A stretch of DNA of 64,000 nucleotides from a bacterium (GTDB lineage: Bacteria; SAR324; JACQKK01), in contig OZ251219.1 in assembly GCA_965240465.1 (NCBI GenBank), positions 224,001 through 288,000 on the forward strand, read 5' to 3'. Below are positions 31,429 through 49,376 of this stretch, in pieces. A model generated the notes under the pieces. It saw nothing but the letters and a program-made list of their open reading frames with translations, did not search any database and was not told the origin of the DNA. Within the stretch, counting starts at the first letter, position 1. Each line of letters starts with the position of its first letter. The position numbers were made by a program, and so were the translations under genes.

Positions 31429-32121
31429 ATGACAAAAAAGACCGAACCAGCACAACTGATCCTTTCTCAGGAGAAAAACCAAGCAAAACAAATCCCCCTA
31501 CGCCTGCGAACCCTAGCTAATCTGCTCATCAGCTGCCAACCTTCTAAACAACTGGCTACCGAAATTAATCAAACCATCACCTACTGGGAACAGTCCCTCC
31601 TAAGAACACCAAACCCCGATACTCCACCCCCAACAACTCCCCACCAAACCCCATCCTCTACCATTCACCCTCCCGAGTCCATAAAGGAACCTGAAATACA
31701 GGCTTGGTGCGATGGCTCTTGCTCGCCTAACCCAGGACCCGGCGGCTGGGGAGTACTCATTCACGCCGAAGGAAAAAAATATGAACTCAGCGGAGCAACT
31801 CACAATAGCACCAACAACATTATGGAACTCACCGCAGCCATCCAAGCCATCACCCCCACCCAAACAGGATGCCACCTGATTATCACTACTGATAGCCGCT
31901 ACCTCATAGAAGGTATTACTCGCTGGCTACCACGATGGAAAAAAAACGGCTGGCGTAAAGCTGATGGCAAACCAGTTCTAAATCAAAAAATCTGGCACCA
32001 ACTGGACGCCCTCTGCCAAACACGAACTATACACTGGAACTGGATCCCCGCCCACACAGGACACCCCGAAAACGAACTCTGCGACCAACTCGCCAACCTA
32101 GCACGCCTTAAACTAAAATAA
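31429..32121 (+). CDS. rnhA: Ribonuclease HI with ~85-aa N-terminal extension
   Basis: CDGSCSPNPGPGGWG, TNNIMEL, TDSRY, WKKNGWR..GKPVLN and HTGHPENELCDQLA. Confidence 0.95.
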   Translation: MTKKTEPAQLILSQEKNQAKQIPLRLRTLANLLISCQPSKQLATEINQTITYWEQSLLRTPNPDTPPPTTPHQTPSSTIHPPESIKEPEIQAWCDGSCSPNPGPGGWGVLIHAEGKKYELSGATHNSTNNIMELTAAIQAITPTQTGCHLIITTDSRYLIEGITRWLPRWKKNGWRKADGKPVLNQKIWHQLDALCQTRTIHWNWIPAHTGHPENELCDQLANLARLKLK

Positions 32122-32125
32122 AAAA

Positions 32126-32150
32126 TGGGGCAGATAATAAATCTGCCCCA
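32126..32150 (-). terminator. Hairpin terminator between convergent rnhA and array gene 1
   Basis: TGGGGCAGAT-AATAA-ATCTGCCCCA. T-rich tail on the minus strand. Confidence 0.85.
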
Positions 32151-32159
32151 ATACTCTAA

Positions 32160-35100
32160 CTACTGAACACCAATAACATCAACTTGGAGCTGATCACAAT
32201 TGTTATTGTTATTGGCTACTTCCTCAGCATATCCACCACTACCATCACTACTAACACAAACTGTATAGTAATATGTCGTATCGTTTGCCACAGTTGGCAC
32301 CGTAATACTCCCAGAGGTAAGCTCACGGTAGGCATCGGAGTTGCTCAAGTTGGCGGCGGCAACTGCAGCATCGGCGGAGGTATCTACATTAGTAGTAGTA
32401 ACCGACGATATCTTCTTGGCACCATCATCAGCAGGAACAATGGCGGCACTATCCGTGGATCTATAATAGTCAAATGTTAGAGTACCTGGAGTACCTGAAT
32501 CCCAATCTCCTATGTTCACAACCTTAAAGCTAAGTGTTATATCACTATTAGATTGAACATTGCCATCGGTGGGAGTAGCTAAAGCTAAACCAAACAGACT
32601 TAGATCAGGGGTCTCATTGCCGGTGACACCCACATTCACCTTAATCTTACTGGTACAGTTGTTGTCGGGGTTTGAATCCGCAGTGCTACCAGAACCAGTA
32701 CTTGTTACACAAGCGTAATAATAATATACGCCTGGAGGGCCTATCGCTGGAAAAGTCGTACCCTTAGCAGGAGTGGCCGAGCCAGAGGCCACTCCAGTCC
32801 CAACCAGAGCATTTATAGCAATTTCCCCTACAGTTCCCGTTCCCACGGCTTCTGCAGCAACGGGGCTGGTGATACTATTATTGCTAGCAGAGCGGTAATA
32901 TTTCAGTGTTTCCGCCGCCGAGGATGCACTCCCAACGTTATACACCCTAGCAGAGAAGGTAACATTCTGATCCAGGATGAGATCTTGGGTACCGGACAAT
33001 TTACCCATTTCTAGATCAGGGGCGGGGAGTACGATCACCTTAACCTTCTTGCTACAGTTGTTGGTGAGGTTTGAATCCGCAGTGCTACCAGAACCAGTAC
33101 TTGTTACACAAGCGTAATAATAATACACGCCACCATTCGCTGAAAAAGACTTATCACCAACGGCTACTCCATTCGCATCCAAAGCAGATATAGTAACTGT
33201 TGCTCCTGTAACAATTTCTCCAGCAACGGGGCTGGTGATAACATTACTGTTCTCAGAGAGGTAATATTGCAATGTTTCCTCCACTGAGGATACACCCCCA
33301 ATGTTCTCCACCTGCACCGAGAATTCAACATTTTCATTAGAGTCCGAGTCAACAGTGTCGTCAGCAATTGTCAATTCACCCATTTGTGGATCGGGGGGGG
33401 TATTCACGATCACCTCAACTATATTGCTGCAGTTGGTGGCGGTTCCCGTATTAGTTACACAAGCGAAGTAATAATATGTGTTAGCAGGACCTGCCACTGT
33501 CAAAGTACTAGTATCAGAGTATGTATTTGTAGCTGTACCACTCTCAGTCAAAGCAGATACGGTAACACTTTCAATGGAGGTTAGTGATTGAGGGTTATTA
33601 CTGGCAGTAGTAGAGCGGTAATAACTCAGTGTTTCCGACCCCGAGGCTATATTCCCTCCGTTAGTCACAATCACCGCAAAAGCAGCATCGCCACCCACGG
33701 TAATAGAAGCTGTGTCACTACTACCACCGACCGTCAATGTACCCAAGGTTAGATTAGCTAGGGCCGCGGTGACGCCCACCGCAACTGTATTGCTGCAGTT
33801 GGTGGCGGTTCCCGTATTAGTTACACAAGCGTAGTAATAATATGTGCCAGCATGGCCTGTCACTGTCAAAGTACTAGCACCAGAGTATGTATTTGTACTA
33901 GCATCTGTACCACTCTTAGTCAAAGCAGATACGGTAACATCTTTAATGGAGGTTAGTGATTGAGGGTCATTACTGTCAGTAGTAGAGCGGTAATAACTCA
34001 GTGTTTCCTCCACCGAGGCTATATTCCCTTCGTTAGTCACAGTCACCGCAAAAGCAGCATCTCCATCCACGGCAATAGAAGCTGTGTCACTACCACCGAC
34101 CGTCAATGTACCCAAGGTTAGATCAGCTGCCTGGGCCGCGATGACGCCCACCCCAACTGTATTGCTGCAGTCGACGGTGCCTCCCGTATTAGTTACACAA
34201 GCGTAGTAATAATAGACGTCATTAACAGTACCTAACACTGAAAAAGTCTTAGTATTAGAGAATGTATTTGTACTAGCAATTGTACCATTCTTAGTCAAAG
34301 TATTAACAGTAACCACCCCCGTAATAGCGGTGCCATCAGTAGTATTATTGTTAGCATTGCTGTAATAGGTTAGTGTTTCAGATTCCGAGTCTGCATTCCC
34401 TTTGTTAGTCACAGTCACCGTAAAATCAGCACTGCCACCCTCGGCAACAGTAGCAACTATGCTACTATTATTGACCGTCAATGTACCCAAGGTTAGATTA
34501 GCTGCCTGGACCGCGGAGACGGTCACCGCAACTGTATTGCTGCAGTTGGTGGCGGTTCCCGTACTTACACAAGCGTAGTAATAATAGGTGGTGCCAACAG
34601 TACCTGTTACTGTCAAAGTACTAGCATCAGAGTATGTATTTGTAGTTGTACCACTATCAGTCAAAACATCTACGGTAACACTTTTAATGGAGGTAGCTAG
34701 TGGTTGAGGGTCACTACTGTTACTATCAGAGCGGTAATACTTCAGTGTTTCCGACCCCGAGGCTATATTCCCTTCGTTAGTCACAATCACCGCAAAATCA
34801 GCAGTGCCACCCACGGTAATAGAAGCTGTGCTGCCACCACCGACCGTCAATGTACCCAAGGTTAGATTAGCTGCCTGGACCGCGGAGACGGTCACCGCAA
34901 CTGTATTGCTGCAGTTGGTGGCGGTTCCCGTACTTACACAAGCGTAGTAATAATAGGTGGTGCCAACAGTACCTGTCACTGTCAAAGTACTAGTATCAGA
35001 GTATGTATTTGTACTAGAACTTGTACCACTCTCAGTCAAAGTACTAACTTTAACCGTCCCCGTGGCGGTGCCACCAGTAGTACTATTGCTAGCATTGCTG

Positions 35101-37193
35101 TAATAGGTTAGTGTCTCAGATGCCGAGGCTATATTCCCTTCGTTAGTCACAGTCACCGTAAAATCAGCACTGCCACCCACGGTAACAGCAGCTGTGTTGA
35201 CCGTCAATGCACCCAAGGTTAGATTAGCTGCCTGGGCCGCGGTGACTTCCACCGCAACTGTATTGCTACAGTTGGTGGTGCTTCCCGTGCTTACACAAGC
35301 GAAGTAATAATAGGTGGTGCCAACAGTACCTGTCACTGTCAAAGTACTAGCATCAGAGTATGTATTTGTAGTTGTACCACTATCAGTCAAAACATCTACG
35401 GTAACACTTTTAATGGAGGTAGCTAGTGGTTGAGGGTCACTACTGTTACTATCAGAGCGGTAATACTTCAGTGTTTCCGACCCCGAGGCTATATTCCCTT
35501 CGTTAGTCACAATCACCGCAAAATCAGCAGTGCCACCCACGGTAATAGAAGCTGTGCTGCCACCACCGACCGTCAATGTACCCAAGGTTAGATTAGCTGC
35601 CTGGGGGGGGGCCGCGGTGACGGACACCGCAACTGTATTGCTACAGTTGGTGGTGCTTCCCGTACTTACACAAGCGTAGTAATAATAGGTGGTGCCAACA
35701 GTACCTGTCACTGTCAAAGTACTAGTATCAGAGTATGTATTTGTACTAGAACTTGTACCACTCTCAGTCAAAGTACTAACTTTAACCGTCCCCGTGGCGG
35801 TGCCACCAGTAGTACTATTGCTAGCATTGCTGTAATAGGTTAGTGTCTCAGATGCCGAGGCTATATTCCCTTCGTTAGTCACAATCACCGCAAAATCAGC
35901 AGTGCCACCCACGGTAATAGAAGCTGTGCTGCCACCACCGACCGTCAATGTACCCAAGGTTAGATTAGCTGCCTGGGGGGGGGCCGCGGTGACGGACACC
36001 GCAACTGTATTGCTACAGTTGGTGGTGCTTCCCGTACTTACACAAGCGTAGTAATAATAGGTGGTGCCAACAGTACCTGTCACTGTCAAAGTACTAGTAT
36101 CAGAGTATGTATTTGTACTAGAACTTGTACCACTCTCAGTCAAAGTACTAACTTTAACCGTCCCCGTGGCGGTGCCACCAGTAGTACTATTGCTAGCATT
36201 GCTGTAATAGGTTAGTGTCTCAGATGCCGAGGCTATATTCCCTTCGTTAGTCACAGTCACCGCAAAAGTAGCATCTTCACCCACGGTAACAGAAGCTGTG
36301 CTGCCACCACCGACCGTCAATGCACCCAAGGTTAGATTAGATTGGGCCGCGGTGACGGACACCGCAACTCGCGAGCTGCAGTCGTTGTTGGAGTTTGTAT
36401 CTTCAGCACTATCAGTACCATTACTTGTCACACAAGCGTAATAATAATATGTGCCAGCAGTGTTTGGCACTTGAACCGTCGCATCATGAGATTCTTCACC
36501 AACTCCTGCAGTCAAAACACCTATATCATCATCCTTACCCGCAATGGCGGTGCCATCAGCAGTCATACTGCTAGCACGGTAATAGGTTAGTGTCTCAGCT
36601 ACCGAGTCTGCACTCCCAACATTCCTCACTCTCACTGAAAGCACAACATCTCCACCCGTGACAGCAGTATCTGGATTAACTGCAAATTGATCCACTCCTA
36701 GATCCGCTTTAGCAGTTTCGGTAAAGATAACTTCCTTGCCAGCGGTACAATCATTGCTGGTGTCGGTGTCATCGGTCGTTACTACACAAGCTCCGTAGAA
36801 AACTGACTTTGCAGTGTCTTCGGTAGCGGTGGTACTTAATTCATCGGACAATGCTCCTCCATCCAAACTAGTGATAGAGGTGTCTGTTAGTACTTCATCA
36901 TCGGAGGTAATAGTTTCGTCTGCAGACTTGTAAAAGGTTACAGTTACGGCTCCTGAAGTGGCTGCTGTCCCTTGATTTTTCACCTTCAAGGAAAGTGTTA
37001 CGTTAGTGTCTTTAACAACGCTGGTGGGACTGACAGCAAAATCATCTGGTATTAAATCAACCCCAGTAGTTTTTGTGCTGGAGGAGTTACTGCCACCACC
37101 ACCACAGGAGGTTAAGAAGAGTGCCGGCAGGACAGTTAACAAAAAGGCAGGCAGAGCTGCGAATTTTAAGAAAGATTGGATGTTTTTATTCAT
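32160..37193 (-). CDS. Surface lipoprotein, 13 tandem Ig/CARDB-like domains (array gene 1)
   Basis: Lipobox LTSC then a Gly/Ser linker. ~125-aa Thr/Ser-rich repeats with [DN]L..V.N.G...ET L.YY...YYYACV...NCS. GAGG RBS. Confidence 0.88.
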   Translation of the reverse strand: MNKNIQSFLKFAALPAFLLTVLPALFLTSCGGGGSNSSSTKTTGVDLIPDDFAVSPTSVVKDTNVTLSLKVKNQGTAATSGAVTVTFYKSADETITSDDEVLTDTSITSLDGGALSDELSTTATEDTAKSVFYGACVVTTDDTDTSNDCTAGKEVIFTETAKADLGVDQFAVNPDTAVTGGDVVLSVRVRNVGSADSVAETLTYYRASSMTADGTAIAGKDDDIGVLTAGVGEESHDATVQVPNTAGTYYYYACVTSNGTDSAEDTNSNNDCSSRVAVSVTAAQSNLTLGALTVGGGSTASVTVGEDATFAVTVTNEGNIASASETLTYYSNASNSTTGGTATGTVKVSTLTESGTSSSTNTYSDTSTLTVTGTVGTTYYYYACVSTGSTTNCSNTVAVSVTAAPPQAANLTLGTLTVGGGSTASITVGGTADFAVIVTNEGNIASASETLTYYSNASNSTTGGTATGTVKVSTLTESGTSSSTNTYSDTSTLTVTGTVGTTYYYYACVSTGSTTNCSNTVAVSVTAAPPQAANLTLGTLTVGGGSTASITVGGTADFAVIVTNEGNIASGSETLKYYRSDSNSSDPQPLATSIKSVTVDVLTDSGTTTNTYSDASTLTVTGTVGTTYYYFACVSTGSTTNCSNTVAVEVTAAQAANLTLGALTVNTAAVTVGGSADFTVTVTNEGNIASASETLTYYSNASNSTTGGTATGTVKVSTLTESGTSSSTNTYSDTSTLTVTGTVGTTYYYYACVSTGTATNCSNTVAVTVSAVQAANLTLGTLTVGGGSTASITVGGTADFAVIVTNEGNIASGSETLKYYRSDSNSSDPQPLATSIKSVTVDVLTDSGTTTNTYSDASTLTVTGTVGTTYYYYACVSTGTATNCSNTVAVTVSAVQAANLTLGTLTVNNSSIVATVAEGGSADFTVTVTNKGNADSESETLTYYSNANNNTTDGTAITGVVTVNTLTKNGTIASTNTFSNTKTFSVLGTVNDVYYYYACVTNTGGTVDCSNTVGVGVIAAQAADLTLGTLTVGGSDTASIAVDGDAAFAVTVTNEGNIASVEETLSYYRSTTDSNDPQSLTSIKDVTVSALTKSGTDASTNTYSGASTLTVTGHAGTYYYYACVTNTGTATNCSNTVAVGVTAALANLTLGTLTVGGSSDTASITVGGDAAFAVIVTNGGNIASGSETLSYYRSTTASNNPQSLTSIESVTVSALTESGTATNTYSDTSTLTVAGPANTYYYFACVTNTGTATNCSNIVEVIVNTPPDPQMGELTIADDTVDSDSNENVEFSVQVENIGGVSSVEETLQYYLSENSNVITSPVAGEIVTGATVTISALDANGVAVGDKSFSANGGVYYYYACVTSTGSGSTADSNLTNNCSKKVKVIVLPAPDLEMGKLSGTQDLILDQNVTFSARVYNVGSASSAAETLKYYRSASNNSITSPVAAEAVGTGTVGEIAINALVGTGVASGSATPAKGTTFPAIGPPGVYYYYACVTSTGSGSTADSNPDNNCTSKIKVNVGVTGNETPDLSLFGLALATPTDGNVQSNSDITLSFKVVNIGDWDSGTPGTLTFDYYRSTDSAAIVPADDGAKKISSVTTTNVDTSADAAVAAANLSNSDAYRELTSGSITVPTVANDTTYYYTVCVSSDGSGGYAEEVANNNNNCDQLQVDVIGVQ
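34490..36345. repeat. Near-identical ~360-372-bp tandem domain repeats within gene 1
   Basis: G9-GCCGCGGTGACGGACACC recurs at 35603 and 35975 (period 372). Domains 3/4/6 and 5/7 are near-identical in DNA. Confidence 0.93.
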
Positions 37194-37243
37194 TTTTTCC
37201 TCATTAGAAGATTGTCAGCATATTCTACTCATAACCAAGTCGC

Positions 37244-37272
37244 AGGTTATCACACCGTTTTGAGGAATGCAA
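37244..37272 (-). promoter_or_regulatory. sigma70-type promoter of array gene 1
   Basis: Minus strand TTGCAT-N17-TAACCT with TGn extension. Conserved in all five units. Confidence 0.7.
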
Positions 37273-37297
37273 CAAAGAAGCTGCTAGGAATGAAGAA

Positions 37298-37422
37298 ACC
37301 AACTGGACGCCCTCTGCCAAACACGAACAATACACTGGAACTGGATCCCCGCCCACACAGGACACCCCGAAAACGAACTCTGCGACCAACTCGCCAACCA
37401 AGCACGCCTTAAACTAAAATAA
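37298..37422 (+). pseudogene. Duplicated 3' fragment of rnhA (copy 1)
   Basis: Matches 31997-32121 except for two T>A substitutions. Confidence 0.95.
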
Positions 37423-37426: not shown

Positions 37427-37499
37427 TGGGGCAGATAATAAATCTGCCCCAAAGAAAACCACTTAAAAAAAGAAGCGGGGCAGATTTATTATCTGCCCC
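37427..37499 (-). terminator. Double hairpin terminator
   Basis: GGGGCAGAT-AATAA-ATCTGCCCC (37428) and GGGGCAGAT-TTATT-ATCTGCCCC (37477). Confidence 0.8.
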
Positions 37500-40786: not shown

Positions 40787-40811
40787 CAAAGAAGCTGCTA
40801 GGAATGAAGAA

Positions 40812-40965: not shown

Positions 40966-40974
40966 ATACTCTAA

Positions 40975-41031: not shown

Positions 41032-43762
41032 GAGAGCTGATATTCACCATAACCTTATTGCTACAGTTGTTGTCGGGGTTTGAATCTGCAGTGATACCAG
41101 AACTAGTACTTGTTACACAAACGTAATAATAATATACGCCTGCAGGGCCTGTCGCTGTAAAAGACTTACCACCATCGTAGTAATTACCCGCAGTCAATTG
41201 AGCACCTACAGAAAATACTTTTCGTGGCGAAAAGGCTTCTAAAGCAACGGGGCTGGTGATAGCATCACTGTTATCAGAGCGGTAGTACTCAAATTTTTCC
41301 ACCGCCGAGAGTGCACTCCCAATGTTATTCACCCTCACAGAGAATAAAATACTGCCACCCATGTTGAGATCTTGGGGACTAGCCGCCAAGACACCCATTG
41401 TTAGATCGGGGGCGGGGAGTACGATCACCTTAACCTTATTGCTACAGTTGTTGGTGAGGTTTGAATCTGCGGTGCTACCAGAACCAGTACTTGTTAAACA
41501 AGCGTAATAATAATATACGCCGCCATTCGCTGAAAAAGACTTATCACCAGAGGCTATTCCATCCGCACCCAAAGCAGGTATAGTAACTGTTTTTCCTATA
41601 ACAATTTCTGTCCCATCGGGGCTGGTGATAACATTACTGTTCTCAGAGCGGTAATATTGCAATGTTTCCTCCACTGAGGATACACCCCCAATGTTCTTCA
41701 CCTCCACCGAGAATACAACATTCTCATCAAGGATGCCTACCACGGAAATAGTGTCGTCAGCAATTGTCAATTCACCCATTTGTAGATCTGGGGTGGCGGG
41801 GGTGGCATTCACGGTCACCGCAACTGTATTGCTACAGTTGACGGTGGTTCCCGTATTAGTTACACAAGCGTAGTAATAATACATGCCAGCAGTGTTTGAC
41901 ACTTGAACCATCTTAGTATTAGGGAATGTATTTGTACTAGCAATTGTACCACTCTCAGTCAAAGCAGTAACATCAACCGTCCCCGTAATAGCGGTGCCAC
42001 CAGTAGTATTATTGTTAGTATTGCTGTAATAGGTTAGTATTTCATCCACCGAGGTTGCAGTTCCGCTGTTAGTCACAGTCACCGCAAAATCAACATTGCC
42101 ACCCTCGGTAATAGAAGCTGTGCTGCCATTATTGACCGTCAATGTACCCAAGGTTAGATTAGCTGCAGCTGCCTGGGCCGCGGTGACGGACACCGCAACC
42201 TTATTGCTGCAGTTGACGGGGGGGATGATTCCCGTATTATTTACACAAGCGTAGTAATGATATGTGGTGCCAACATCACCTGACACTATAATACCCTCAC
42301 TACTCTTGAATCCTACATTCTTACCCACAGCATTTATAGAAAATGTTTGTTCTGGCGAAAGGATTTCGTTGGTGTCGGGGCTGGTGATAGCAGCACTGCT
42401 AGCAGAGCGGTAATATTTCAGTTCTTCCACCGCTGAGAGTATATTCCCTCTGTTAGTCACAGTCACCGCAAAAGTAGCATCGCTACCTACGACAACATCA
42501 ACTGTAGTACTACTACCATTGACCGTCAATGTACCCATTTGTAGATTGGGGGCATTCACGGTCACCTCAACTGTATCGCTGCAGTCGACGGTGGCTACCG
42601 TATTAGTTACACAAGCGAAGTAATAATAGATGCCAGCAGGGCCTATCACTGTCAAAGTACTAGGATAATCTTTATCACCATTACCACCCAAAGGAGCTAC
42701 GGTAACACTACTTCCAATTTTAGTGGAGGTTGATGATTGAGGGTTATTACTGTCAGTAGTAGAGCGGTAATAACTCAGTGCTTCCTCCACCGAGTCTACA
42801 TCCCCTTCGTTAGACACACTCGCCACAAAATCAACCATACCCGCGGTAACAGTAGCTGGGTCTCCACTACCATTGACCGTAAGGGACACTTGTAGACTGG
42901 CGGGGTCGGAGGCATTCACGGTCACCTCAACTGTATCGCTGCAGTCGACGGTGCCTCCCGTATTAGTTACACAAGCGTAATAATAATATGTGCCAGCAGT
43001 GCCTGACGCTTGAACCGTCGCATCATAAGATTGTGTAGCACCCATAGTCAAAACGTCTACAGTAGCATCCTTACCTATAATGGCGGTGCCATTAACAGTA
43101 CTATTGGTAGTATTGCTGTAATAGGTTAGTGTCTCAGCTACCGAGTCTGCACTCCCACTATTCCTCACCATCACTGAAAGCACAACCTCACCACTCGTGG
43201 CAATAGTACTTGGATTAACTGCAAATTGATCCACTCCTAGATCCGCTTTAGCAGTTTCGGTAAAGGTAACTTGCTTGCCAGCGGTACAATCATTGCCGAG
43301 GTTGGTGTCATCGGTCGTTTTTACACAAGCTCCGTAGAAAACTGACTTTGCAGTGCCTTCGGTAGCGGTGGTACTTAACTCATCGGACAATTCTCCTCCA
43401 TCCAAACTAGCGATAGAGGTGTCCCCTGTTAGTACATCATCATCGGAGGTAATAGTTTTGTCTATGGACTTGTAAAAGGTTACAGTTACGGCTCCTGAAG
43501 TAGCTGCTGTCCCTTGATTTTTCACCTTCAAGGAAAGTGTTACGTCAGTGCCTTTAACAACGCTGGTGAGACTGACAGCAAAATCATCTGGTATTAAATC
43601 AATTCCAGTAATTTTTGTGCCGGAGGAGTTACTGTCACCATCGCCGCCGCCGCCATCATCACCGCCACCACCACAGGATGTTAAGAAGAGTGCCGGTAGG
43701 ACGGTTAACAAAAAGGCAGGCAGAGCTGCGAATTTTAAGAAAGATTGGATGTTTTTATTCAT
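41027..43762 (-). CDS. Surface lipoprotein, 7 Ig/CARDB-like domains (array gene 3)
   Basis: Same signal peptide, lipobox and domain motif. C-terminally shortened. Confidence 0.88.
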   Translation of the reverse strand: MNKNIQSFLKFAALPAFLLTVLPALFLTSCGGGGDDGGGGDGDSNSSGTKITGIDLIPDDFAVSLTSVVKGTDVTLSLKVKNQGTAATSGAVTVTFYKSIDKTITSDDDVLTGDTSIASLDGGELSDELSTTATEGTAKSVFYGACVKTTDDTNLGNDCTAGKQVTFTETAKADLGVDQFAVNPSTIATSGEVVLSVMVRNSGSADSVAETLTYYSNTTNSTVNGTAIIGKDATVDVLTMGATQSYDATVQASGTAGTYYYYACVTNTGGTVDCSDTVEVTVNASDPASLQVSLTVNGSGDPATVTAGMVDFVASVSNEGDVDSVEEALSYYRSTTDSNNPQSSTSTKIGSSVTVAPLGGNGDKDYPSTLTVIGPAGIYYYFACVTNTVATVDCSDTVEVTVNAPNLQMGTLTVNGSSTTVDVVVGSDATFAVTVTNRGNILSAVEELKYYRSASSAAITSPDTNEILSPEQTFSINAVGKNVGFKSSEGIIVSGDVGTTYHYYACVNNTGIIPPVNCSNKVAVSVTAAQAAAANLTLGTLTVNNGSTASITEGGNVDFAVTVTNSGTATSVDEILTYYSNTNNNTTGGTAITGTVDVTALTESGTIASTNTFPNTKMVQVSNTAGMYYYYACVTNTGTTVNCSNTVAVTVNATPATPDLQMGELTIADDTISVVGILDENVVFSVEVKNIGGVSSVEETLQYYRSENSNVITSPDGTEIVIGKTVTIPALGADGIASGDKSFSANGGVYYYYACLTSTGSGSTADSNLTNNCSNKVKVIVLPAPDLTMGVLAASPQDLNMGGSILFSVRVNNIGSALSAVEKFEYYRSDNSDAITSPVALEAFSPRKVFSVGAQLTAGNYYDGGKSFTATGPAGVYYYYVCVTSTSSGITADSNPDNNCSNKVMVNISSP

Positions 43763-43812
43763 TTTTTCCTCATTAGAAGATTGTCAGCATATTTTACTCA
43801 TAACCAAGTCAC

Positions 43813-43841
43813 AGGTTATCACACTGTTTTGAGGAATGCAA
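43813..43841 (-). promoter_or_regulatory. sigma70-type promoter of array gene 3
   Basis: TTGCAT-N17-TAACCT on the minus strand. Confidence 0.7.
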
Positions 43842-43864
43842 AAGAAGCTGCTAGGAATGAAGCA

Positions 43865-43980
43865 ACCAACTGGACGCCCTCTGCCAAACACGAACAATAC
43901 ACTGGAACTGGATCCCCGCCCACCCTCAAAACGAACTCTGCGACCAACTCGCCAACCAAGCACGCCTTAAACTAAAACAA
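43865..43980 (+). pseudogene. Duplicated 3' fragment of rnhA (copy 3)
   Basis: As copies 1-2 but with a 9-bp deletion between CAC repeats and a few further substitutions, including loss of the stop codon. Confidence 0.93.
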
Positions 43981-43984: not shown

Positions 43985-44057
43985 TGGGGCAGACAATAAA
44001 TCTGCCCCAAAGAAAACCACTTAAAGAAAGGAGTGGGGCAGACAATAAATCTGCCCC
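43985..44057 (-). terminator. Double hairpin terminator
   Basis: Two GGGGCAGA-CAATAAA-TCTGCCCC hairpins separated by AAAGAAAACCACTTAAAGAAAGGAGT. Confidence 0.8.
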
Positions 44058-44067
44058 CATACTCTAA

Positions 44068-47000
44068 CTACTGAACAGCAATTCGGTCATAAATACAATG
44101 TTCGTCACTACCATCAGAGGATTTACTAATACAAGCCCCATAATAATACTCTCCCGAAACAAGACCGCTTTGGGTTTTAGTACCAGTCATGGTGTCAGTA
44201 AGGGAACTACCACTATCACCATTCGCAGCTACTGAACTAATACCTTTTGCAGATTGTTGTGGTACGTCACTAGTATTAAGGACATCATTATCTGATCCAT
44301 AATATCTTAAAGTAAGTGCTGCACTTGCTGCATCACCCAGATTTTTAATAACCACCCTCATTTTGATATTATCCCCATTACTCACAGAACCTTCTCCGTA
44401 TGTGACAACAGTCTCTACGCCACTACTATCAACCTTGTACACTACCAGGTCATGCAGTTTAATATCTACTCCGCTGGTAGCATTAACAACAACCGCTTGA
44501 CTGACACAATTGTTGCCTGTATTGGCACTGTCCTCACCACCTCCCGAAATACAAACTCCATAATATAATGTGCCTTTATCTCGTTGGGTTAAAAAATCGG
44601 ATTTTAGTACATCCTTCTCACTACCAACAGCCAATCCACTACTAAAAGAAGTTGTACCAACAACTTCGTCATCAGCAAAGCTTGTATCAGCTGACATGTA
44701 ATATTTTACAGTGATTACCTCACCACTTGCTAAAACAGCGTTACTGCTGTTGTTTCTAACCTTCACGCTAATTTGGATACTATCCCCAGCTAGGAGAGTG
44801 CCTCCATCTGCAATCACGGCGTTGCCCGAGTTTATGGAATTTCTCAATACTAAACCAGTCGGTATCAAATCTAGACTCTGGACAACAACAGGGGCAATGA
44901 CAGGAACTGCGAGCTGATCACAATTGTTAGCTTTAGCGGTTGCTGCCTCATTAAGAGTGGCACTCACACAAACTGTATAGTAATATGTTGCATTGGATGT
45001 CACAGTTTCCACCGTAATTGTTCCAGAGATAACACTACGTTCGCCCGCACTGACGGTCAAGTTGGCGACATCTGCGGCAACAGTGGCAGTATCAGGAACC
45101 GATATCTTCTTGCTACTATCATTAGCAGGATTAATGGCGGTGCTATCCGTGGATCTATAATAGTCAAATGTTAGAGCACCTGAACCCCCAGTAGTTCCTA
45201 TGTTTTGAACCTTAAAGCCAAGTTTTATATCACTACCAGATTTAACATCGCCACTGCTGGGAGTATTTAAAGCTAAATCAAACACCTTTAGATCAAGGGT
45301 CGCACTACCGACGACACTCACATTCACCCTAACCTTATTGCTACAGTCGTTGGCAGAGTTTGAATCTACAGCGACACCAGTACCAGTGCTTGTTATACAA
45401 GCATAATAATACCACGTGCCTTTAGGGGTTGTCGCTGGAAAAGTCTCACCACCAGGGGCTGTTCCACCCGCAATCAAAACATCTACATCAACTACTTGTT
45501 CTGGCGAAAGGGCTTCGCTGGTGACGGAGCTGGTGACGGGGCTGTCGAGATTACCACCAGTAGTAGAGCGGTAATATATCAAGTCTTCCTCCGCCGAACT
45601 TACAGTCCCTTCGTTAGTCACGGTCACCGAGAATTCAATATTGTCATTCACCGAAACATCGCTGTCAGTGACTGTCAATGTACCCACTCCTAGATCGGGA
45701 GCGGGGGCTCCCACGATCACCGAAACTGTATTGCTACAGTTGGGGGTAGATCCCGTATTACTTACACAAGCGAAGTAATAATAGGTGGTGCCAACAGTAC
45801 CTTCCACTATCAAACCTCTACTATCAGAGATTGTACGAGACGCATCCAAAGCAGCTATGTTAACACTTTCAATGTCGGTTAGTGATTGAGGGTCATTACT
45901 GTTAGTAGTAGAGCTGTAATATTTCAGTGTTTCCGCACCCGATATTGCAGTCCCGCTGTTAGTCACAGTCACCGCAAAAGCAGCACTTTTACCCTTGGCA
46001 ACAGTAGCTGTGCTACTACCCTTGACCGTCAATGTATCACCCAAGGTTAGATTGGGTGTCTGGGTGCCAGAGGTCATCACGGTCAACTCAGCTCGCGAGC
46101 TGCAGTCGTTGCTGGAGTTTGCATCTGCAGTGCTACCAGTACCAGTACTTGTCACACAAGCGTAATAATAATATGTGCTAGCAGTGCCTGCTTGAACCAT
46201 CGCAGTATAAGATTGTGTAGCACCCATAGTCAAAACGTCTACAGTAGCATCCTTACCTGTAATGGCGGTGCCATCAGCAGTCATACTGCTAGCGAGGTAA
46301 TAGGTTAGTGTTTCAGCTGCCGAAGCTGCACTCCCACTATTCTTCACTCTCACTGAAAGCACAACCTCACCACTCGGGGCAATAGTACTTGGAGCAACTG
46401 CAAATCGATCCAATGCTAGATCCGCGCTAGCAGAATCGGTAAAGATAACTTCCGTGCCAGCGGTACAATCATTGCTGGCGTCGGTGTCATCGGTCGTTAC
46501 TACACAAGCTCCGTAGTAAACTGAACCTGCAGCACTTTCGGTGGCCATGGTACTTGACTCAGCAGACAATGCTCCCATACCCAAACCAGTGAGAGCGAAA
46601 CCATTTCCTACTTCAGTATCGGAGGAGTCAATAGTTTCGTCTGTAGATTTGTAAAAGGTTAGAATTGCGGCTGTTGAAGCAGCTGTCCCTTGATTTTTCA
46701 CCTTCGAGGAAAGTGTTACGTTATCGTCTTTAACAACACTGGTAGCACTGACAGCAAAACCATATGGTATTAAATCAACCCCCGCAGTTTCGGTAAAGGT
46801 AACTTTCGTGCCAGCGGTACAATCATTGCTGGTGTCGGTGTCATCGGTCGTTTCTACACAAGCTCCGTAGAAAACTGGACCTGCAGCGTTTTCGGTGGCC
46901 ATGGTACTTAACTCAGCAGACAATGTTTCTCCATCCAAACTAAGGATAGTGGCGTCCCTTCCTAATACAGTATCATCGGAGGGGGTAATAGTTCCGTCTG

Positions 47001-47283
47001 TAGACTTGTAAAAGGTTACAGTCACGGCTCCTGAAGCCTCTGTCCCTTGATTTTTCACCTTCAAGGAAAGTTTTACTTCAGTGCCTTTAACAACACTGGT
47101 AGCACTGACAGCAAAATTATCTGGTGTTAAATCAATTCCAGCAACAGGTCCAGTAGTTTCTGTGCCGGAAGATTTATCTTCATCACCGCCACCACAGGAG
47201 GTTAAGAAGAGTCCCGATAGGACGGTTAACAAAAAGGCAGGCAGAGCTGCGAACTTTAAGAAAGATCGGATGTTTTTATTCAT
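44068..47283 (-). CDS. Surface lipoprotein, 8 Ig/CARDB-like domains (array gene 4)
   Basis: Slightly diverged signal peptide (LSGLFLTSC) and the same domain motif. Has two distinct C-terminal domains. Confidence 0.88.
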   Translation of the reverse strand: MNKNIRSFLKFAALPAFLLTVLSGLFLTSCGGGDEDKSSGTETTGPVAGIDLTPDNFAVSATSVVKGTEVKLSLKVKNQGTEASGAVTVTFYKSTDGTITPSDDTVLGRDATILSLDGETLSAELSTMATENAAGPVFYGACVETTDDTDTSNDCTAGTKVTFTETAGVDLIPYGFAVSATSVVKDDNVTLSSKVKNQGTAASTAAILTFYKSTDETIDSSDTEVGNGFALTGLGMGALSAESSTMATESAAGSVYYGACVVTTDDTDASNDCTAGTEVIFTDSASADLALDRFAVAPSTIAPSGEVVLSVRVKNSGSAASAAETLTYYLASSMTADGTAITGKDATVDVLTMGATQSYTAMVQAGTASTYYYYACVTSTGTGSTADANSSNDCSSRAELTVMTSGTQTPNLTLGDTLTVKGSSTATVAKGKSAAFAVTVTNSGTAISGAETLKYYSSTTNSNDPQSLTDIESVNIAALDASRTISDSRGLIVEGTVGTTYYYFACVSNTGSTPNCSNTVSVIVGAPAPDLGVGTLTVTDSDVSVNDNIEFSVTVTNEGTVSSAEEDLIYYRSTTGGNLDSPVTSSVTSEALSPEQVVDVDVLIAGGTAPGGETFPATTPKGTWYYYACITSTGTGVAVDSNSANDCSNKVRVNVSVVGSATLDLKVFDLALNTPSSGDVKSGSDIKLGFKVQNIGTTGGSGALTFDYYRSTDSTAINPANDSSKKISVPDTATVAADVANLTVSAGERSVISGTITVETVTSNATYYYTVCVSATLNEAATAKANNCDQLAVPVIAPVVVQSLDLIPTGLVLRNSINSGNAVIADGGTLLAGDSIQISVKVRNNSSNAVLASGEVITVKYYMSADTSFADDEVVGTTSFSSGLAVGSEKDVLKSDFLTQRDKGTLYYGVCISGGGEDSANTGNNCVSQAVVVNATSGVDIKLHDLVVYKVDSSGVETVVTYGEGSVSNGDNIKMRVVIKNLGDAASAALTLRYYGSDNDVLNTSDVPQQSAKGISSVAANGDSGSSLTDTMTGTKTQSGLVSGEYYYGACISKSSDGSDEHCIYDRIAVQ

Positions 47284-47331
47284 TTTTTCTCATTAGAAAT
47301 TGTTGATATATTGTACTCACAACTAAGCCGC

Positions 47332-47360
47332 AGGGTATCACACTGTTTTGAGGAATACAA
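47332..47360 (-). promoter_or_regulatory. sigma70-type promoter of array gene 4
   Basis: TTGTAT-N17-TACCCT at the homologous position. Confidence 0.6.
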
Positions 47361-47386
47361 CAACAAAAACTGCTAGGAATGAAGAA

Positions 47387-47527
47387 ACCAGCTGGACGCC
47401 CTCTGCAAAAACACGAACAATACACTGGCACTGGATCCCTGCCCACATCGGACACCCTTAAAACGAACTCTGCGACCAACTCGCCAACCAAGCACGCCTC
47501 AAACTAAAAGCCCATCCCCCAAAATAA
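47387..47527 (+). pseudogene. Duplicated 3' fragment of rnhA (copy 4, most diverged)
   Basis: Same breakpoint. Has a 1-bp insertion, GAA>TAA, several substitutions and a longer 3' end (KLKAHPPK*). Confidence 0.9.
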
Positions 47528-47529
47528 AC

Positions 47530-47551
47530 GGGACAGATGAACATCTGCCCC
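47530..47551 (-). terminator. Diverged hairpin terminator
   Basis: GGGACAGATG-AA-CATCTGCCCC. Confidence 0.65.
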
Positions 47552-47552
47552 A

Positions 47553-49178
47553 TTAATTTAGACGCTGCTGAATATCAATTATTATATGCTTACAATTGTC
47601 CCCTATTTTGGCAGTATCTTCACCACCTCCCGAAAGACAAGCTCTATAATTGGTTGTGCCAAGCGTTACACCAATAGAAGCAGTTTGGGCTTTTTCAGCA
47701 CTGGTGCGATTAACTCTATCATTACCCCCACCATTTGCACTCAATCCAGTAATAGTCTTTGCTGGCTCAAAAAGGGCGCCACCACTGCCATCAGGACCCG
47801 AGTTTCTACGAAATTCTAAAGTAACATCAGATGTTGGAGCAGTATTACCCAGGCTTTTAATACTCACATATATTCTGAGAGTATCGCCTATGTAGATAAC
47901 GGCTGAGGGTGCAAGGGGAGTGGCGATTCCATTCAAGACCCTGTATACCACTAACTCCTCCAGTAACAAATCTATTCCGTCGGGAGCATTAGCAACAGTA
48001 ATTTCTTTACTAAGGCATTTAGTGCCTGTAGTGCCATCATTAGCTAGTTCAACACAAGCTCCAAAATAAAACGTGCCAATATCTATTTGGTTGAATTCAA
48101 CACTGGTAATATTCTCAACAAGACCTTGTTGCCCAGCCAATGAGTCGTTGATAACTTTGCTTTCAAGAAGAACATCGTCTATGCCATCAACAGCTGATGC
48201 GGATCTATAAAATTTTACAGTGGCTTTACCAGCTGCTACATCACCATCACCACTGTTTCCAACATTTATAAGCATGTGGATTTTGCCTTCATAGTTGATA
48301 CTTTGGTCTGTATCCTCACTGGAGCCATCGTATAATCTTAAATTATCCAGTGACAAATCTGGATTATTGGTAAAGGTAACTTCCGTGCCAGCGGTACAAT
48401 TATTGCTGGTGTCGGGTTCACCGATCGTTACTACACAAGCTCCGTAGTAAACTGGACCTGCAGTGCTTTCGGTGGCCATGACACTCAATTCATCAGACAA
48501 TGCTCCTCCATCCAAACTAGTGAGAGCCTTATTTCCTACTGCAGTATCAGCGGAGGTAATAGTTCCGTCTGCAGACTTGTAAAAGGTTACAGTTACGGTT
48601 CCTGAATCAGCTGTCCCTTGATTTCTCACCTTCAAGGAAAGTTTTACGTTACTGCTTTTAACAACACTGGTAGCACTGACAGCAAAACCATATGGTATTA
48701 AATCAACCCCCGCAGTTTCGGTAAAGGTAACTTTCGTGCCAGCGGTACAATCATTGTTGGCGTTGGTGTCATCGGTCGTTACTACACAAGCTCCGTAGTA
48801 AACTGGACCTGCAGTGCTTTCGGTGGTGGTAGTACTTAACTCAGCAGACAATGCTCCTCCATCCAAACTAGCGATAGAGGTGTCCACTTCTACTTCATCA
48901 TCGGAGGAGCTAATAGTTCCGTCTATAGACTTGTAAAAGGTTACAGTTACGGTTCCTGAATCATCTGTCCCTTGATTTCTCACCTTCAAGGAAAGTCTTA
49001 CTTCAGTGTCTTTGACAACACTGGTAGCACTGACAGCAAAATCATCCGGTGTTAAATCAACGCCGGAGGATTTCTTTTCATCACCGCCACAAGAGATTAA
49101 GAAGAGTGCTGGCAGGACGGTTAACAAAAAGGCAGGCAGAGCCACGAATTTCAAGAAAGATTTAACGTTCTTATTCAT
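47553..49178 (-). CDS. Surface lipoprotein, 4 Ig/CARDB-like domains (array gene 5)
   Basis: Start at ATG 49178 (MNKNVKSF, homologous to the other four, GGGAG RBS). Lipobox LISC. Confidence 0.88.
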   Translation of the reverse strand: MNKNVKSFLKFVALPAFLLTVLPALFLISCGGDEKKSSGVDLTPDDFAVSATSVVKDTEVRLSLKVRNQGTDDSGTVTVTFYKSIDGTISSSDDEVEVDTSIASLDGGALSAELSTTTTESTAGPVYYGACVVTTDDTNANNDCTAGTKVTFTETAGVDLIPYGFAVSATSVVKSSNVKLSLKVRNQGTADSGTVTVTFYKSADGTITSADTAVGNKALTSLDGGALSDELSVMATESTAGPVYYGACVVTIGEPDTSNNCTAGTEVTFTNNPDLSLDNLRLYDGSSEDTDQSINYEGKIHMLINVGNSGDGDVAAGKATVKFYRSASAVDGIDDVLLESKVINDSLAGQQGLVENITSVEFNQIDIGTFYFGACVELANDGTTGTKCLSKEITVANAPDGIDLLLEELVVYRVLNGIATPLAPSAVIYIGDTLRIYVSIKSLGNTAPTSDVTLEFRRNSGPDGSGGALFEPAKTITGLSANGGGNDRVNRTSAEKAQTASIGVTLGTTNYRACLSGGGEDTAKIGDNCKHIIIDIQQRLN

Positions 49179-49224
49179 TTTCTCCCATTTGGAAAATTGC
49201 CGATGCTGTACACGGCAGAGCTGT

Positions 49225-49253
49225 ATGCTATCACACTGTTTTAAGGGATGCAA
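49225..49253 (-). promoter_or_regulatory. sigma70-type promoter of array gene 5
   Basis: TTGCAT-N17-TAGCAT with TGn. Conserved despite divergence of the flanking DNA. Confidence 0.7.
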
Positions 49254-49376
49254 TGCAAGAAAATCGGCAAATTACAAAAAATAATTTGCAAAGTTGGTTA
49301 TGTGGGTATACTTTGGGATAGGTAGTGATCGTTCTCATTACAGAATGAAGTTTTTCTAGTTTTGGTTTAAGAAGTC

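What the first reader, a model, noticed from the sequence alone, without database searches (positions are those of the whole stretch)
31997..49270. Cassette-like array of five Ig-domain lipoprotein genes amplified together with the 3' end of rnhA
Seen: five head-to-tail units, each [last ~125 bp of rnhA][GGGGCAGA..TCTGCCCC hairpin][lipoprotein gene][own promoter]. The four internal junctions (37298, 40812, 43865, 47387) share one breakpoint, ...CTGCTAGGAATGAAG(A/C)A|ACCA(A/G)CTGGACGCC. Gene 5's promoter is followed by iscS DNA instead of an rnhA fragment, which implies an ancestral layout of rnhA-><-gene, iscS->. The array holds about 40 domains in total, and no recombinase is encoded in the window. 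Inference: one founding duplication created the junction, and the array now expands, contracts and shuffles by recombination, giving a variable surface-protein (adhesin/decoy) repertoire anchored on a core gene. I do not recognise this as a described locus.
Basis: partly seen in the sequence, partly recalled or inferred. Interest (0 to 1): 0.88.

Follow-up and report, generated by a model that had tools for sequence, protein, structure and literature searches.

The report
Tandem array of surface lipoprotein genes
Five related genes for long, bead-like surface lipoproteins sit head to tail between two housekeeping genes of a small bacterial genome, each copy carrying the same scrap of the neighbouring gene, which shows how one duplication grew into a fast-changing gene family.

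Summary
Five minus-strand genes (4-13 CARDB-type domains each, 40 in all) lie between rnhA and iscS. All four internal junctions share one breakpoint and carry the last 125 nt of rnhA plus a terminator hairpin.

In the congener, rnhA is followed directly by iscS, so the array is a lineage-specific expansion. The four rnhA scraps share two substitutions absent from the live gene, which points to one founding junction. Amplification by homologous unequal crossing-over then followed; recA is present.

The genes are full-length, each with a ribosome-binding site, lipobox signal peptide and terminator. They are not silent cassettes, and no recombinase, invertible site or reverse transcriptase was found.

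The domains are mosaic (permutation test 0 of 1000). The ectodomains have dN/dS of about 1.2-1.9, against at most 0.46 for the signal peptide.

Other public assemblies hold alleles with clustered replacement tracts and one extra domain. The genome has at least eight further lipoprotein arrays.

Verdict: an ordinary mechanism (tandem paralog expansion) in an undescribed locus. It is a recombining, probably diversifying surface-protein family, and not a programmed cassette system.

The parts
31429..32121 (+). rnhA (RNase HI), the intact gene. Its last 125 nt (31997-32121) is the segment copied into every unit.
   Evidence: Pfam RNase_H E 2e-43, residues 90-224. NCBIfam ribonuclease HI, 177.9 bits against a cut-off of 160.
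32126..32150 (-). Terminator hairpin of gene 1, followed by a U-tract that is the complement of the end of rnhA.
   Evidence: -19.7 kcal/mol, z -6.15.
32160..37193 (-). Gene 1: lipoprotein of 1677 aa with 13 domains (A, B, 8 x C, D, E, F).
   Evidence: Tandem repeat of 8.0 copies of 372 nt.
37194..37297 (-). Upstream region of gene 1: ribosome-binding site and a conserved 25-nt block at 37248-37272 (putative promoter or operator).
   Evidence: No consensus promoter was found.
37298..37422 (+). rnhA fragment j1, 98.5% identical to rnhA and identical to j2.
37427..37499 (-). Two terminator hairpins of gene 2 (37427-37451 and 37477-37499). The loop of the second is inverted.
37510..40707 (-). Gene 2: lipoprotein of 1065 aa with 8 domains (B, 4 x C, D, E, F).
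40708..40811 (-). Upstream region of gene 2, with the conserved block at 40762-40786.
40812..40936 (+). rnhA fragment j2.
40941..40965 (-). Terminator hairpin of gene 3.
40966..41026 (-). Out-of-frame relic of a deleted F-type domain: its start is fused to the old gene end ..IGVQ*.
41027..43762 (-). Gene 3: lipoprotein of 911 aa with 7 domains (A, B, 3 x C, D, E).
43763..43864 (-). Upstream region of gene 3, with the conserved block at 43817-43841.
43865..43980 (+). rnhA fragment j3, with a 9-nt deletion; 95.9% identical to rnhA.
43985..44057 (-). Two terminator hairpins of gene 4.
44068..47283 (-). Gene 4: lipoprotein of 1071 aa with 8 domains (A, A, B, C, E, F, G, H).
47284..47386 (-). Upstream region of gene 4, with the conserved block at 47336-47360.
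47387..47510 (+). rnhA fragment j4, the most decayed: 91% identical to rnhA, with a 1-nt insertion and an internal stop. The end coordinate is approximate.
47527..47554 (-). Terminator hairpin of gene 5.
   Evidence: -17.9 kcal/mol, z -2.79.
47553..49178 (-). Gene 5: lipoprotein of 541 aa counted from the ATG (the ORF is open up to a TTG at 49253), with 4 domains (A, A, G, H).
   Evidence: The exact 541-aa form is on record in the protein collection.
49179..49376 (.). Original intergenic region between gene 5 and iscS, with the conserved block at 49229-49253 and no rnhA fragment.
49377..50591 (+). iscS, followed by iscU, hscB and hscA.
   Evidence: Pfam Aminotran_5 E 2.2e-86, NifU_N, DnaJ, HSP70.

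Best explanation
This is a lineage-specific family of five complete, tandemly amplified genes for large lipoproteins. Each protein consists of 4-13 CARDB-type (Ig-like) domains, each with one cysteine pair, hung on a Gly/Ser-rich tether behind a lipobox cysteine.

Origin. A single gene once lay tail to tail with rnhA, between rnhA and iscS. One illegitimate recombination joined a point about 104 nt upstream of that gene's start to a point 125 nt before the rnhA stop codon. This duplicated a self-sufficient unit running from terminator to upstream region. The rnhA scrap came along because the gene's terminator abuts the end of rnhA and uses it as its U-tract.

Growth. RecA-type unequal crossing-over between the repeats then raised the copy number stepwise. 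The youngest junctions lie nearest rnhA. Recombination within and between genes keeps adding, deleting and swapping whole domains and sub-domain tracts.

Selection. The signal peptide and 5' region stay conserved. The ectodomains change at least as fast at amino-acid-changing sites as at silent sites, which suggests diversifying selection on an exposed surface.

Status of each step. Shown: the anatomy, the single junction, the synteny, the mosaicism, and the existence of variant alleles elsewhere. Inferred: the order of events, separate transcription of each gene, surface exposure, and a role in contact with a host (perhaps a sponge), phage or grazer.
For: Anatomy and junction:
- All four junctions share one breakpoint. 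Copies of the rnhA end occur nowhere else in the genome.
- All four scraps share two substitutions against the live rnhA. j1 and j2 are identical over 130 of 130 nt. Identity to rnhA falls from 98.5% and 98.5% to 95.9% and 91.0% with distance from rnhA, and j3 and j4 carry indels.

Synteny:
- In the congener G001, rnhA and iscS are 212 nt apart.
- iscS follows rnhA within 0.2-1.2 kb in 6 of 11 relatives' loci.
- With the g3 protein as query, only 2 of 31 related genomes matched: the window's own genome, and G001 at 32% identity at other loci.

Gene completeness:
- All 5 genes have a lipobox signal peptide and a terminator.
- The genome encodes LspA, Lgt and RecA. lpxC lies in the window.
- Pfam CARDB scores above its cut-off in 5 of 5 proteins and in 22 of 40 single domains.

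Mosaicism:
- Tracts of 120-490 nt at 95-100% identity link non-allelic repeats.
- In 14 C-type domains, 79 informative sites gave a neighbour incompatibility of 0.414 against 0.511 in permutations; 0 of 1000 permutations were as low.
- j1 and j2 are identical although g1 and g2 differ at dS 0.07-0.34.

Selection:
- dN/dS exceeds 1 in 28 of 35 ectodomain pairs, against 0-0.46 for the signal peptide.
- Pooled by gene pair, dN/dS is 1.20-1.93, with one-sided p of 0.016-0.16.
- Controls in the same genome: protease array 0.38-0.80, GLUG array 0.47-0.66.

Variants elsewhere:
- P0004 differs from g3 at 65 of 914 columns. The differences are strongly clustered (0 of 10000 permutations as clustered), and the longest identical run is 204 residues.
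- P0005 has an extra A domain. P0004 looks like its in-register fusion.
- Pieces like g3, g4 and g5 all report a contig of the same length, 61,794 nt.
Against: - Expression, lipidation and surface exposure were not tested. No RNA data were looked at.
- No consensus promoter was found in any of the five upstream regions. Read-through from a single promoter upstream of gene 5 is therefore not excluded.
- Pooled dN/dS is only marginally above 1: 3 of 5 gene-pair sets reach p < 0.05, and the G/H domains give 0.85. The method ignores recombination and codon bias, so relaxed constraint could explain much of the signal.
- The order and copy number of the units rest on one assembly. In the two runs that hold the region, no contig spans it: the flank contigs stop at 32026 and start at 49113.
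- The alleles from other assemblies are frameshifted, so that assembly is noisy or the genes there are decaying. I could not see their DNA or their samples.
- The Ig-like fold is taken from what is known of the Pfam family.
Confidence: 0.7

Rival explanations
1. It is a programmed antigenic or phase-variation system. One expressed gene would be rewritten from silent cassettes, or genes would be switched on and off by site-specific inversion or slipped-strand repeats.
For: The 5' regions and signal peptides of g1-g3 are near-identical (96-100%) while the repetitive ectodomains diverge. This is the pattern of mycoplasma variable lipoprotein loci. Mosaic alleles exist.
Against: All 5 genes are complete, point the same way, and each has a ribosome-binding site, signal peptide and terminator. 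The only inverted repeats are the terminator hairpins. No recombinase was found among 43 of 44 window ORFs scanned. The whole genome has only two tyrosine recombinases, at 309 kb and 1446 kb, and no reverse transcriptase. No long homopolymer or short-unit repeat was seen in the aligned upstream regions.
Confidence: 0.07
2. It is a neutral birth-and-death array. The duplicates are tolerated and drift under relaxed constraint towards decay, with no adaptive diversification.
For: Pooled dN/dS is close to 1 (1.20-1.36 in three of five sets, 0.85 for G/H). g3 has lost its last domain by deletion and frameshift. The alleles on the 61.8-kb contig are split by frameshifts.
Against: All five ORFs of 541-1677 aa are open. 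Both cysteines are invariant in all 40 domains, and 8 further positions are at least 90% conserved. The signal peptide is under purifying selection. The A and B domains reach dN/dS of 1.6-2.3. Other arrays in the same genome give 0.4-0.8 by the same method.
Confidence: 0.17
3. It is an assembly artefact. Strain alleles of a single gene would have been strung together, or the repeat number would have been mis-resolved.
For: The genome is a metagenome-type assembly, and its marker-gene completeness is 83.6%. No contig of the two runs spans the array. Variant letters and joints show that more than one form is present in the sample.
Against: The five genes differ in architecture (13, 8, 7, 8 and 4 domains) and are only 35-59% identical overall, so they are not alleles. 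The junction copies differ from each other by point changes and indels in a graded way. Pieces like three different array genes are reported from a contig of one and the same length in another assembly. All 30 depth bins of the region are covered in both runs. The domain count within g1, whose repeats are 96-98% identical, is the part most open to error.
Confidence: 0.04

Closest known systems
Mycoplasma variable surface lipoprotein loci (Vpma of M. agalactiae; Vsp and Vlp families)
   Same: Both are clustered families of lipoprotein genes in a small genome. Upstream regions and signal peptides are highly conserved, while the mature parts are repetitive and vary in size and sequence. Both are thought to vary the cell surface. 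The abstracts of PMC5634654 and PMC2268961, seen in the search listing, describe Vpma switching. The conserved 5' ends of the Vsp and Vlp genes are recalled, not read here.
   Different: Vpma switching works by Xer1 site-specific recombination at one expression site (PMC5634654 abstract). Here no adjacent recombinase, recombination site or inverted gene was found, and every gene has its own 5' region. The organism is a diderm (lpxC), and the domains are CARDB-type.
   Same: Both are lipoproteins built of a long string of Ig-like domains behind a lipobox, and paralogs arose by partial duplication. The Lig proteins act as host-matrix adhesins.
   Different: The domain family differs: Lig proteins use Big_2, and no Big_2 match was found in the five proteins. 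The Lig genes number two and do not form a five-unit head-to-tail array with a shared junction.
Tandem gene amplification by an illegitimate join followed by RecA-dependent unequal crossing-over (textbook model, recalled)
   Same: There is one novel junction repeated at every unit boundary. Units lie head to tail. An intact flanking gene sits at one end and the original upstream DNA at the other. recA is present.
   Different: Laboratory amplifications are usually identical, unstable copies. Here the copies are old enough to have diverged to 35-59% protein identity and to have different domain numbers.
Pfam CARDB (PF07705) multi-domain surface proteins of other symbiont genomes
   Same: The domain family is the same, and so is the two-cysteine motif. 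Relatives at 24-38% identity occur in metagenome-assembled genomes of Dehalococcoidia, Poribacteria, Latescibacterota, Gemmatimonadota, Acidobacteriota and Actinomycetota. Two of these carry bin names that PMC11706023 (passage read) assigns to the sponges Aplysina aerophoba and Ircinia ramosa. Loci L022 and L024 hold 3-4 clustered paralogs.
   Different: Many of those relatives are larger proteins that mix CARDB with LDL-receptor, NHL, fn3 or cadherin domains. In the loci I examined, those I looked at begin with ordinary signal peptides and not lipoboxes. None has the rnhA-scar array.

Membership tests
Pfam CARDB (PF07705) | Profile score above the curated gathering cut-off (22.7 bits). | tested here: met
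   5 of 5 proteins score 51.6-115.3 bits. 22 of 40 single domains match at E <= 0.01, best 4.5e-09. The other 18 are tied in only by the internal alignment and tree.
Pfam CARDB (PF07705) | Ig-like beta-sandwich fold. | not testable with these tools
No solved structure matched by sequence: best E 0.033 to a cellulase, taken as spurious, and none at all.
Bacterial lipoprotein (signal peptidase II substrate) | Positively charged N-terminal region, hydrophobic region, and a lipobox L-[AST]-[GAS]-C. | tested here: met
   All 5 proteins begin MNKN(I/V)..FL(T/I)SC followed by a Gly/Ser-rich stretch.
Bacterial lipoprotein (signal peptidase II substrate) | The maturation enzymes Lgt and LspA are encoded in the genome. 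| tested here: met
   LspA E 3.3e-31. Lgt E 4.0e-69.
Bacterial lipoprotein (signal peptidase II substrate) | Actual lipidation and exposure on the outer surface. | not testable with these tools
   The search for the surface-lipoprotein transporter family PF04575 found nothing, but its control rang in 0 of 14 genomes, so the result is uninformative.
Tandem amplification from one founding duplication | The same novel junction at every unit boundary, with units head to tail. | tested here: met
   4 of 4 junctions share the breakpoint. The fragments share 2 derived substitutions.
Site-specific inversion systems of variable lipoproteins (Vpma type) | A recombinase gene at the locus and recombination sites or inverted genes. 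| tested here: not met
   No recombinase was found in 43 of 44 window ORFs scanned. All genes lie on one strand. The only inverted repeats are the terminator hairpins.
Silent-cassette gene conversion systems (vls, pilS, msp2 type; features recalled) | One expression site plus promoterless, truncated donor cassettes. | tested here: not met
   5 of 5 copies have a start codon, ribosome-binding site, signal peptide, open frame and terminator.
Diversity-generating retroelement | A reverse transcriptase with template and variable repeats. | tested here: not met
   There was no RVT_1 match in the whole genome, while the control rang in 3 of 14 genomes.
Known anti-phage defence or phage proteins | A match to PADLOC or PHROGs profiles. 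| tested here: not met
   PADLOC matched 0 of 5 proteins. PHROGs gave one weak hit of unknown function, for g5 only, E 9.4e-06.

The most novel reading that the evidence does not exclude
A genome-reduced diderm symbiont, perhaps of sponges, may run a mycoplasma-like surface strategy without any dedicated switch. At least 8.4% of its 1.6-Mb genome consists of tandem arrays of giant lipoproteins (CARDB, GLUG, RCC1 and protease-linked families). These arrays are remodelled by ordinary homologous recombination, and at least two of them evolve with dN/dS above 1. The CARDB module is shared, possibly by gene transfer, among symbionts of at least six phyla that live in the same kind of host. On this reading the array would be one visible arm of a host-, phage- or grazer-driven arms race, with recombinant forms coexisting inside one host sample.
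Probability: 0.3. Interest if true: 0.6.

Novelty: new member of a known kind. Interest (0 to 1): 0.38.

Why it matters
The locus is an unusually legible record of how a surface-protein family is born. The scrap of rnhA marks every unit, so both the founding event and the order of later amplifications can be read straight from the sequence.

If the proteins are exposed and under diversifying selection, they are candidates for the molecules through which an uncultured, genome-reduced symbiont meets its host, its phages or its grazers. Together with the other arrays in this genome, they would show that small-genome diderm symbionts can keep a large variable surface repertoire by plain homologous recombination.

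For genome annotation the lesson is practical. The 41-codon rnhA-like fragments are scars, not genes. The domain counts of such arrays need checking with long reads.

Tried and rejected

Searches that found nothing useful:
- Sequence searches of solved structures gave only E 0.033 to a cellulase with the domain profile and nothing for two A domains.
- In metagenome contigs, the junction pattern had 0 matches and the g3 protein had 0 relatives.
- tblastn against plasmids gave no match. PADLOC matched 0 of 5 proteins. PHROGs gave one weak hit of unknown function.
- The search for the surface-lipoprotein transporter family was uninformative because its control was silent.
- The consensus promoter scan found no site in the five upstream regions.

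Reads:
- Two runs from one sample hold 78-81% of the sampled words but are kept only as short contigs.
- Nothing spans the array, so unit order and copy number could not be checked.
- A third run of the same species label held nothing.
- Nine joints were listed. The 4 whose intervening letters are known are all in frame (4 of 4) and join matching positions of different domains, at depths of 2.9-29 against 54-187 for the flanks.
- I read these joints only as a weak hint of minor recombinant forms, because the sides are 30-83 nt and such contigs can mislead.

Literature:
- 'CARDB' + sponge + symbiont matched 28 papers by word start. The 15 listed were irrelevant.
- Whole-word 'CARDB' + sponge matched 2 papers, both irrelevant.
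- I found no description of this locus. Supplementary tables, for example those of PMC3909097, could not be seen.

Technical missteps:
- A first BLAST self-comparison under-reported repeats and was replaced by diagonal chaining.
- One script failed, and one call had a coordinate slip (corrected).
- A scan of the intergenic DNA of the other arrays overflowed. It shows only that stretches I had treated as intergenic hold more GLUG-like DNA.

Ideas considered and dropped:
- Diversity-generating retroelement: no reverse transcriptase in the genome.
- Inversion shufflon: no inverted repeats other than the terminator hairpins.
- Integration at the nearby tRNA-Arg: the array lies beyond rnhA, not at the tRNA.
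Full report
OBSERVATION

The region holds five long ORFs on the minus strand: 32160-37193, 37510-40707, 41027-43762, 44068-47283 and 47553-49253. All begin with nearly the same signal peptide, which ends in a lipobox, MNKN(I/V)..FL(T/I)SC. A glycine/serine-rich stretch follows. For the fifth gene the matching ATG is at 49178, giving 541 aa, and that exact product is on record.

rnhA (31429-32121, plus strand) precedes the array. iscS, iscU, hscB and hscA follow it.

An alignment of the six boundary regions shows the following at 37298, 40812, 43865 and 47387. The roughly 104 nt upstream of each gene stop at the same base and are followed by the last 125 nt of rnhA and a GGGGCAGA..TCTGCCCC hairpin.

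The 178-nt end of rnhA has 7 matches in the 1.6-Mb genome, all inside the array.

Each protein has exactly two cysteines per repeat. That gives 13, 8, 7, 8 and 4 domains, 40 in all. A profile built from the domains finds the same numbers.

SETTING

The window lies in a single-contig genome of 1,599,138 nt with 45.4% G+C and a marker-gene completeness of 83.6%.

In the only genome of the same genus held (G001), rnhA ends 212 nt before iscS. Among 11 loci around rnhA in relatives, iscS follows within 0.2-1.2 kb in 6. Three of the other five are cut short by contig ends.

With gene 3 as query, 2 of 31 related genomes matched: the window's own genome, and G001 at 32% identity at other loci. G001 has its own small clusters of CARDB-bearing lipoproteins elsewhere.

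The array is therefore an expansion peculiar to this lineage, inside a conserved rnhA-iscS neighbourhood.

The window encodes housekeeping functions. No recombinase was found in 43 of 44 ORFs scanned, and 7 ORFs have no family.

THE UNIT AND ITS ORIGIN

On the minus strand every gene is followed by a strong hairpin with a U-tract (-17.9 to -48.6 kcal/mol). That U-tract is the complement of the A-rich end of rnhA. A duplication that kept the terminator therefore had to include some rnhA sequence. I read the remaining 110 nt or so as a passenger.

The four scraps share two substitutions that the live rnhA lacks. j1 and j2 are identical over 130 of 130 nt. j3 has a 9-nt deletion. j4 has a 1-nt insertion and a stop. 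Identity to rnhA is 98.5, 98.5, 95.9 and 91.0% in that order. This supports one founding junction and stepwise amplification, with the youngest junctions next to rnhA. It gives no sign of ongoing copying from the live gene.

Upstream regions are 96-97% identical among g1-g3, 83-85% identical to g4 and 61-67% identical to g5. A 25-nt block 55-79 nt before each ATG is kept in all five. It occurs nowhere else in the genome apart from one five-mismatch hit.

No consensus sigma-70 promoter was found in these regions. 'Own promoter' therefore remains an inference from the terminators and the conserved block.

THE PROTEINS

Pfam CARDB is the only family matched. It scores above its cut-off in 5 of 5 proteins and in 22 of 40 single domains.

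A tree of the 40 domains sorts them into types A to H. These occur in one collinear order, with gains and losses:
- g1: A, B, 8 x C, D, E, F
- g2: B, 4 x C, D, E, F
- g3: A, B, 3 x C, D, E
- g4: A, A, B, C, E, F, G, H
- g5: A, A, G, H

Both cysteines are invariant, and eight further positions are at least 90% conserved. The genome encodes Lgt and LspA. lpxC lies in the window.

I therefore infer outer-membrane lipoproteins of a diderm cell that project strings of Ig-like domains.

DYNAMICS

Recombination:
- Ungapped tracts of 120-490 nt at 95-100% identity link non-allelic repeats within g1 and between g1, g2 and g3. They are embedded in more diverged sequence.
- g1 holds 8.0 copies of a 372-nt period.
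- In 14 C-type domains, 51% of informative site pairs fail the four-gamete test. Neighbouring sites are less incompatible than shuffled ones (0.414 against 0.511; 0 of 1000 permutations as low). This is the signature of recombination.
- The j1 and j2 scraps are identical although g1 and g2 differ at silent sites by 0.07-0.34. Either the 5' and intergenic parts were homogenised recently, or the coding parts were rebuilt.
- g3 carries, after its stop codon, the out-of-frame start of an F-type domain fused to the old gene end. A domain was therefore lost by deletion.

Selection:
- dN/dS by the Nei-Gojobori method exceeds 1 in 28 of 35 ectodomain pairs. It is 0-0.46 in the signal peptide.
- Pooled per gene pair, dN/dS is 1.20, 1.24, 1.36, 1.26 and 1.93, with one-sided p of 0.16, 0.11, 0.045, 0.042 and 0.016. 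For the old G/H domains it is 0.85.
- The same script gives 0.38-0.80 for the protease array and 0.47-0.66 for a GLUG array. It gives 1.9-2.3 for an RCC1 array.
- The signal is real relative to controls but only marginally above neutrality. The method ignores recombination.

VARIANTS ELSEWHERE

The large protein collection holds close relatives from other assemblies.
- P0004 (913 aa) is an allele of g3. It is identical at 849 of 914 columns, and its 65 differences are packed into a few tracts (0 of 10000 permutations as clustered; longest identical run 204).
- P0005 plus P0066 form a split g3 allele with an additional A domain. P0004 looks like an in-register fusion of its two A domains.
- P0069 plus P0068 (g5-like), P0070 (g4-like, 77-78%) and P0082 (C-type) all report a contig of 61,794 nt, as does P0005. 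This suggests, but does not prove, that several array genes sit together there too.
- The frameshifts point to a noisy assembly or to decay.

In the two runs that hold the window's sequence, only short contigs are kept and none spans the array. The four joints that can be checked are all in frame and in register between domains, at low depth. I treat that only as a hint.

THE WIDER GENOME

A lipobox search finds 54 ORFs of at least 250 aa, covering 134.7 kb or 8.4% of the genome. Most lie in tandem arrays.

Of 38 such proteins scanned, 34 carry the GLUG motif, 1 carries RCC1 repeats, 2 are subtilase-plus-P-domain proteins (one of them with CARDB), and 1 is CARDB only.

Tandem arrays of large lipoproteins are thus a theme of this genome. 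The array under study is one of at least nine.

RELATIVES

The exhaustive search gives 3415 representatives at E <= 1e-3 and 471 at E <= 1e-30. The best outside this species are 33-40% identical, and many are giant multi-domain proteins.

Named genomes with relatives belong to Dehalococcoidia, Poribacteria, Latescibacterota, Gemmatimonadota, Acidobacteriota, Actinomycetota and Chloroflexota. Two bin-name prefixes are assigned to the sponges Aplysina aerophoba and Ircinia ramosa in a passage of PMC11706023. Passages of PMC3909097 describe Poribacteria as sponge symbionts that carry LDL-receptor, Ig-like, fn3 and cadherin proteins with signal peptides.

That the present organism is a sponge symbiont is therefore a lead, not a result.

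MECHANISM AND RIVALS

My reading (0.7) is ordinary tandem paralog expansion from one illegitimate join. RecA-type unequal exchange and conversion followed (recA is present). The result is a set of separately terminated, probably separately transcribed, surface lipoproteins whose exposed domains diversify.

A programmed cassette or inversion system (0.07) fails its defining features. Neutral birth-and-death (0.17) fits the near-neutral pooled dN/dS and the decay seen in g3. It fits less well with five long open frames and the invariant framework residues. Mis-assembly (0.04) is unlikely given the different architectures and the graded junction divergence. The domain count of g1 is the weakest point of the assembly.

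COMPARISON AND NOVELTY

The locus works most like mycoplasma variable lipoprotein families, with conserved 5' ends and variable repetitive bodies. It lacks their recombinase-driven switch (abstracts of PMC5634654 and PMC2268961).

In protein design it resembles Leptospira Lig proteins (recalled), but the domain family differs. The amplification signature is the textbook one.

I found no paper on this locus or on CARDB arrays in sponge symbionts.

I rate it a new member of a known kind, with interest 0.38. It is a clean, instructive example with some promise for symbiosis biology, and not a new kind of system.

Noticed in passing
G000:C1 313-348 kb, 691-716 kb, 793-811 kb, 871-898 kb, 1341-1358 kb (loci L032-L039): Five or six tandem arrays of large lipoproteins (about 400-2627 aa) share the signal peptide MKKLSLLSA..FLASCGG. 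34 of 38 proteins scanned carry the Pfam GLUG motif. Together with the other families, lipobox ORFs of at least 250 aa cover at least 8.4% of the genome. Stretches I had treated as intergenic (for example 315482-322109 and 893701-896204) hold further GLUG-like DNA.
   Followed up: partly
G000:C1:1379667-1388432 (L040): Three tandem RCC1-repeat lipoproteins of about 849 aa have dN/dS of 1.9-2.3 between copies, and the intergenic DNA is 98% identical over 475 nt. This is a second array with more amino-acid than silent change.
   Followed up: partly
G000:C1:911837-924999 (L041); window 4494-6251 (+): There is an array of one plus four lipoproteins of about 670-800 aa. Each carries an N-terminal CARDB-like domain, a subtilase domain and a proprotein-convertase P domain (dN/dS 0.4-0.8). 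A further subtilase-plus-P-domain ORF lies in the window itself.
   Followed up: partly
window 40966-41026: Behind the stop codon of gene 3 lies the out-of-frame start of an F-type domain, fused to the last codons of the ancestral gene end (..IGVQ*). It is a relic of a deleted domain. The allele P0004 from another assembly ends at the same residue.
   Followed up: yes
window 37427-37499 and 43985-44057: The terminator hairpin is doubled behind genes 2 and 4, with a 25-26 nt spacer. In the first pair the loop of the second hairpin is inverted relative to the first. In the second pair both loops point the same way.
   Followed up: partly
window 31278-31353 (-) and 31429-31695 (+): A tRNA-Arg (CCT) lies 76 nt before the rnhA ORF. 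The first 85-89 residues of that ORF match no RNase H profile, and relatives match from residue 64-90 onward. The true start of rnhA may therefore lie further downstream.
   Followed up: no
L022 and L024 (Dehalococcoidia genomes): Each locus holds three or four clustered paralogs of about 426-493 aa with 2-3 of the same two-cysteine CARDB-type domains behind an ordinary signal peptide. Clustering of this family is therefore not confined to the window's organism.
   Followed up: no
G001:C1:1252010-1264220 (L044, L045): The congener has six lipoproteins of 435-487 aa that share the signal peptide MKTLQSSYTVPG..LASCGGGG, in two clusters. It also has two tandem CARDB-bearing genes at 1239216-1244098. 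Its arrays differ from those of the window's genome in family and in place.
   Followed up: no
window 1900-2344 (+): A bacterial RNase P RNA of class A (256.8 bits).
   Followed up: no
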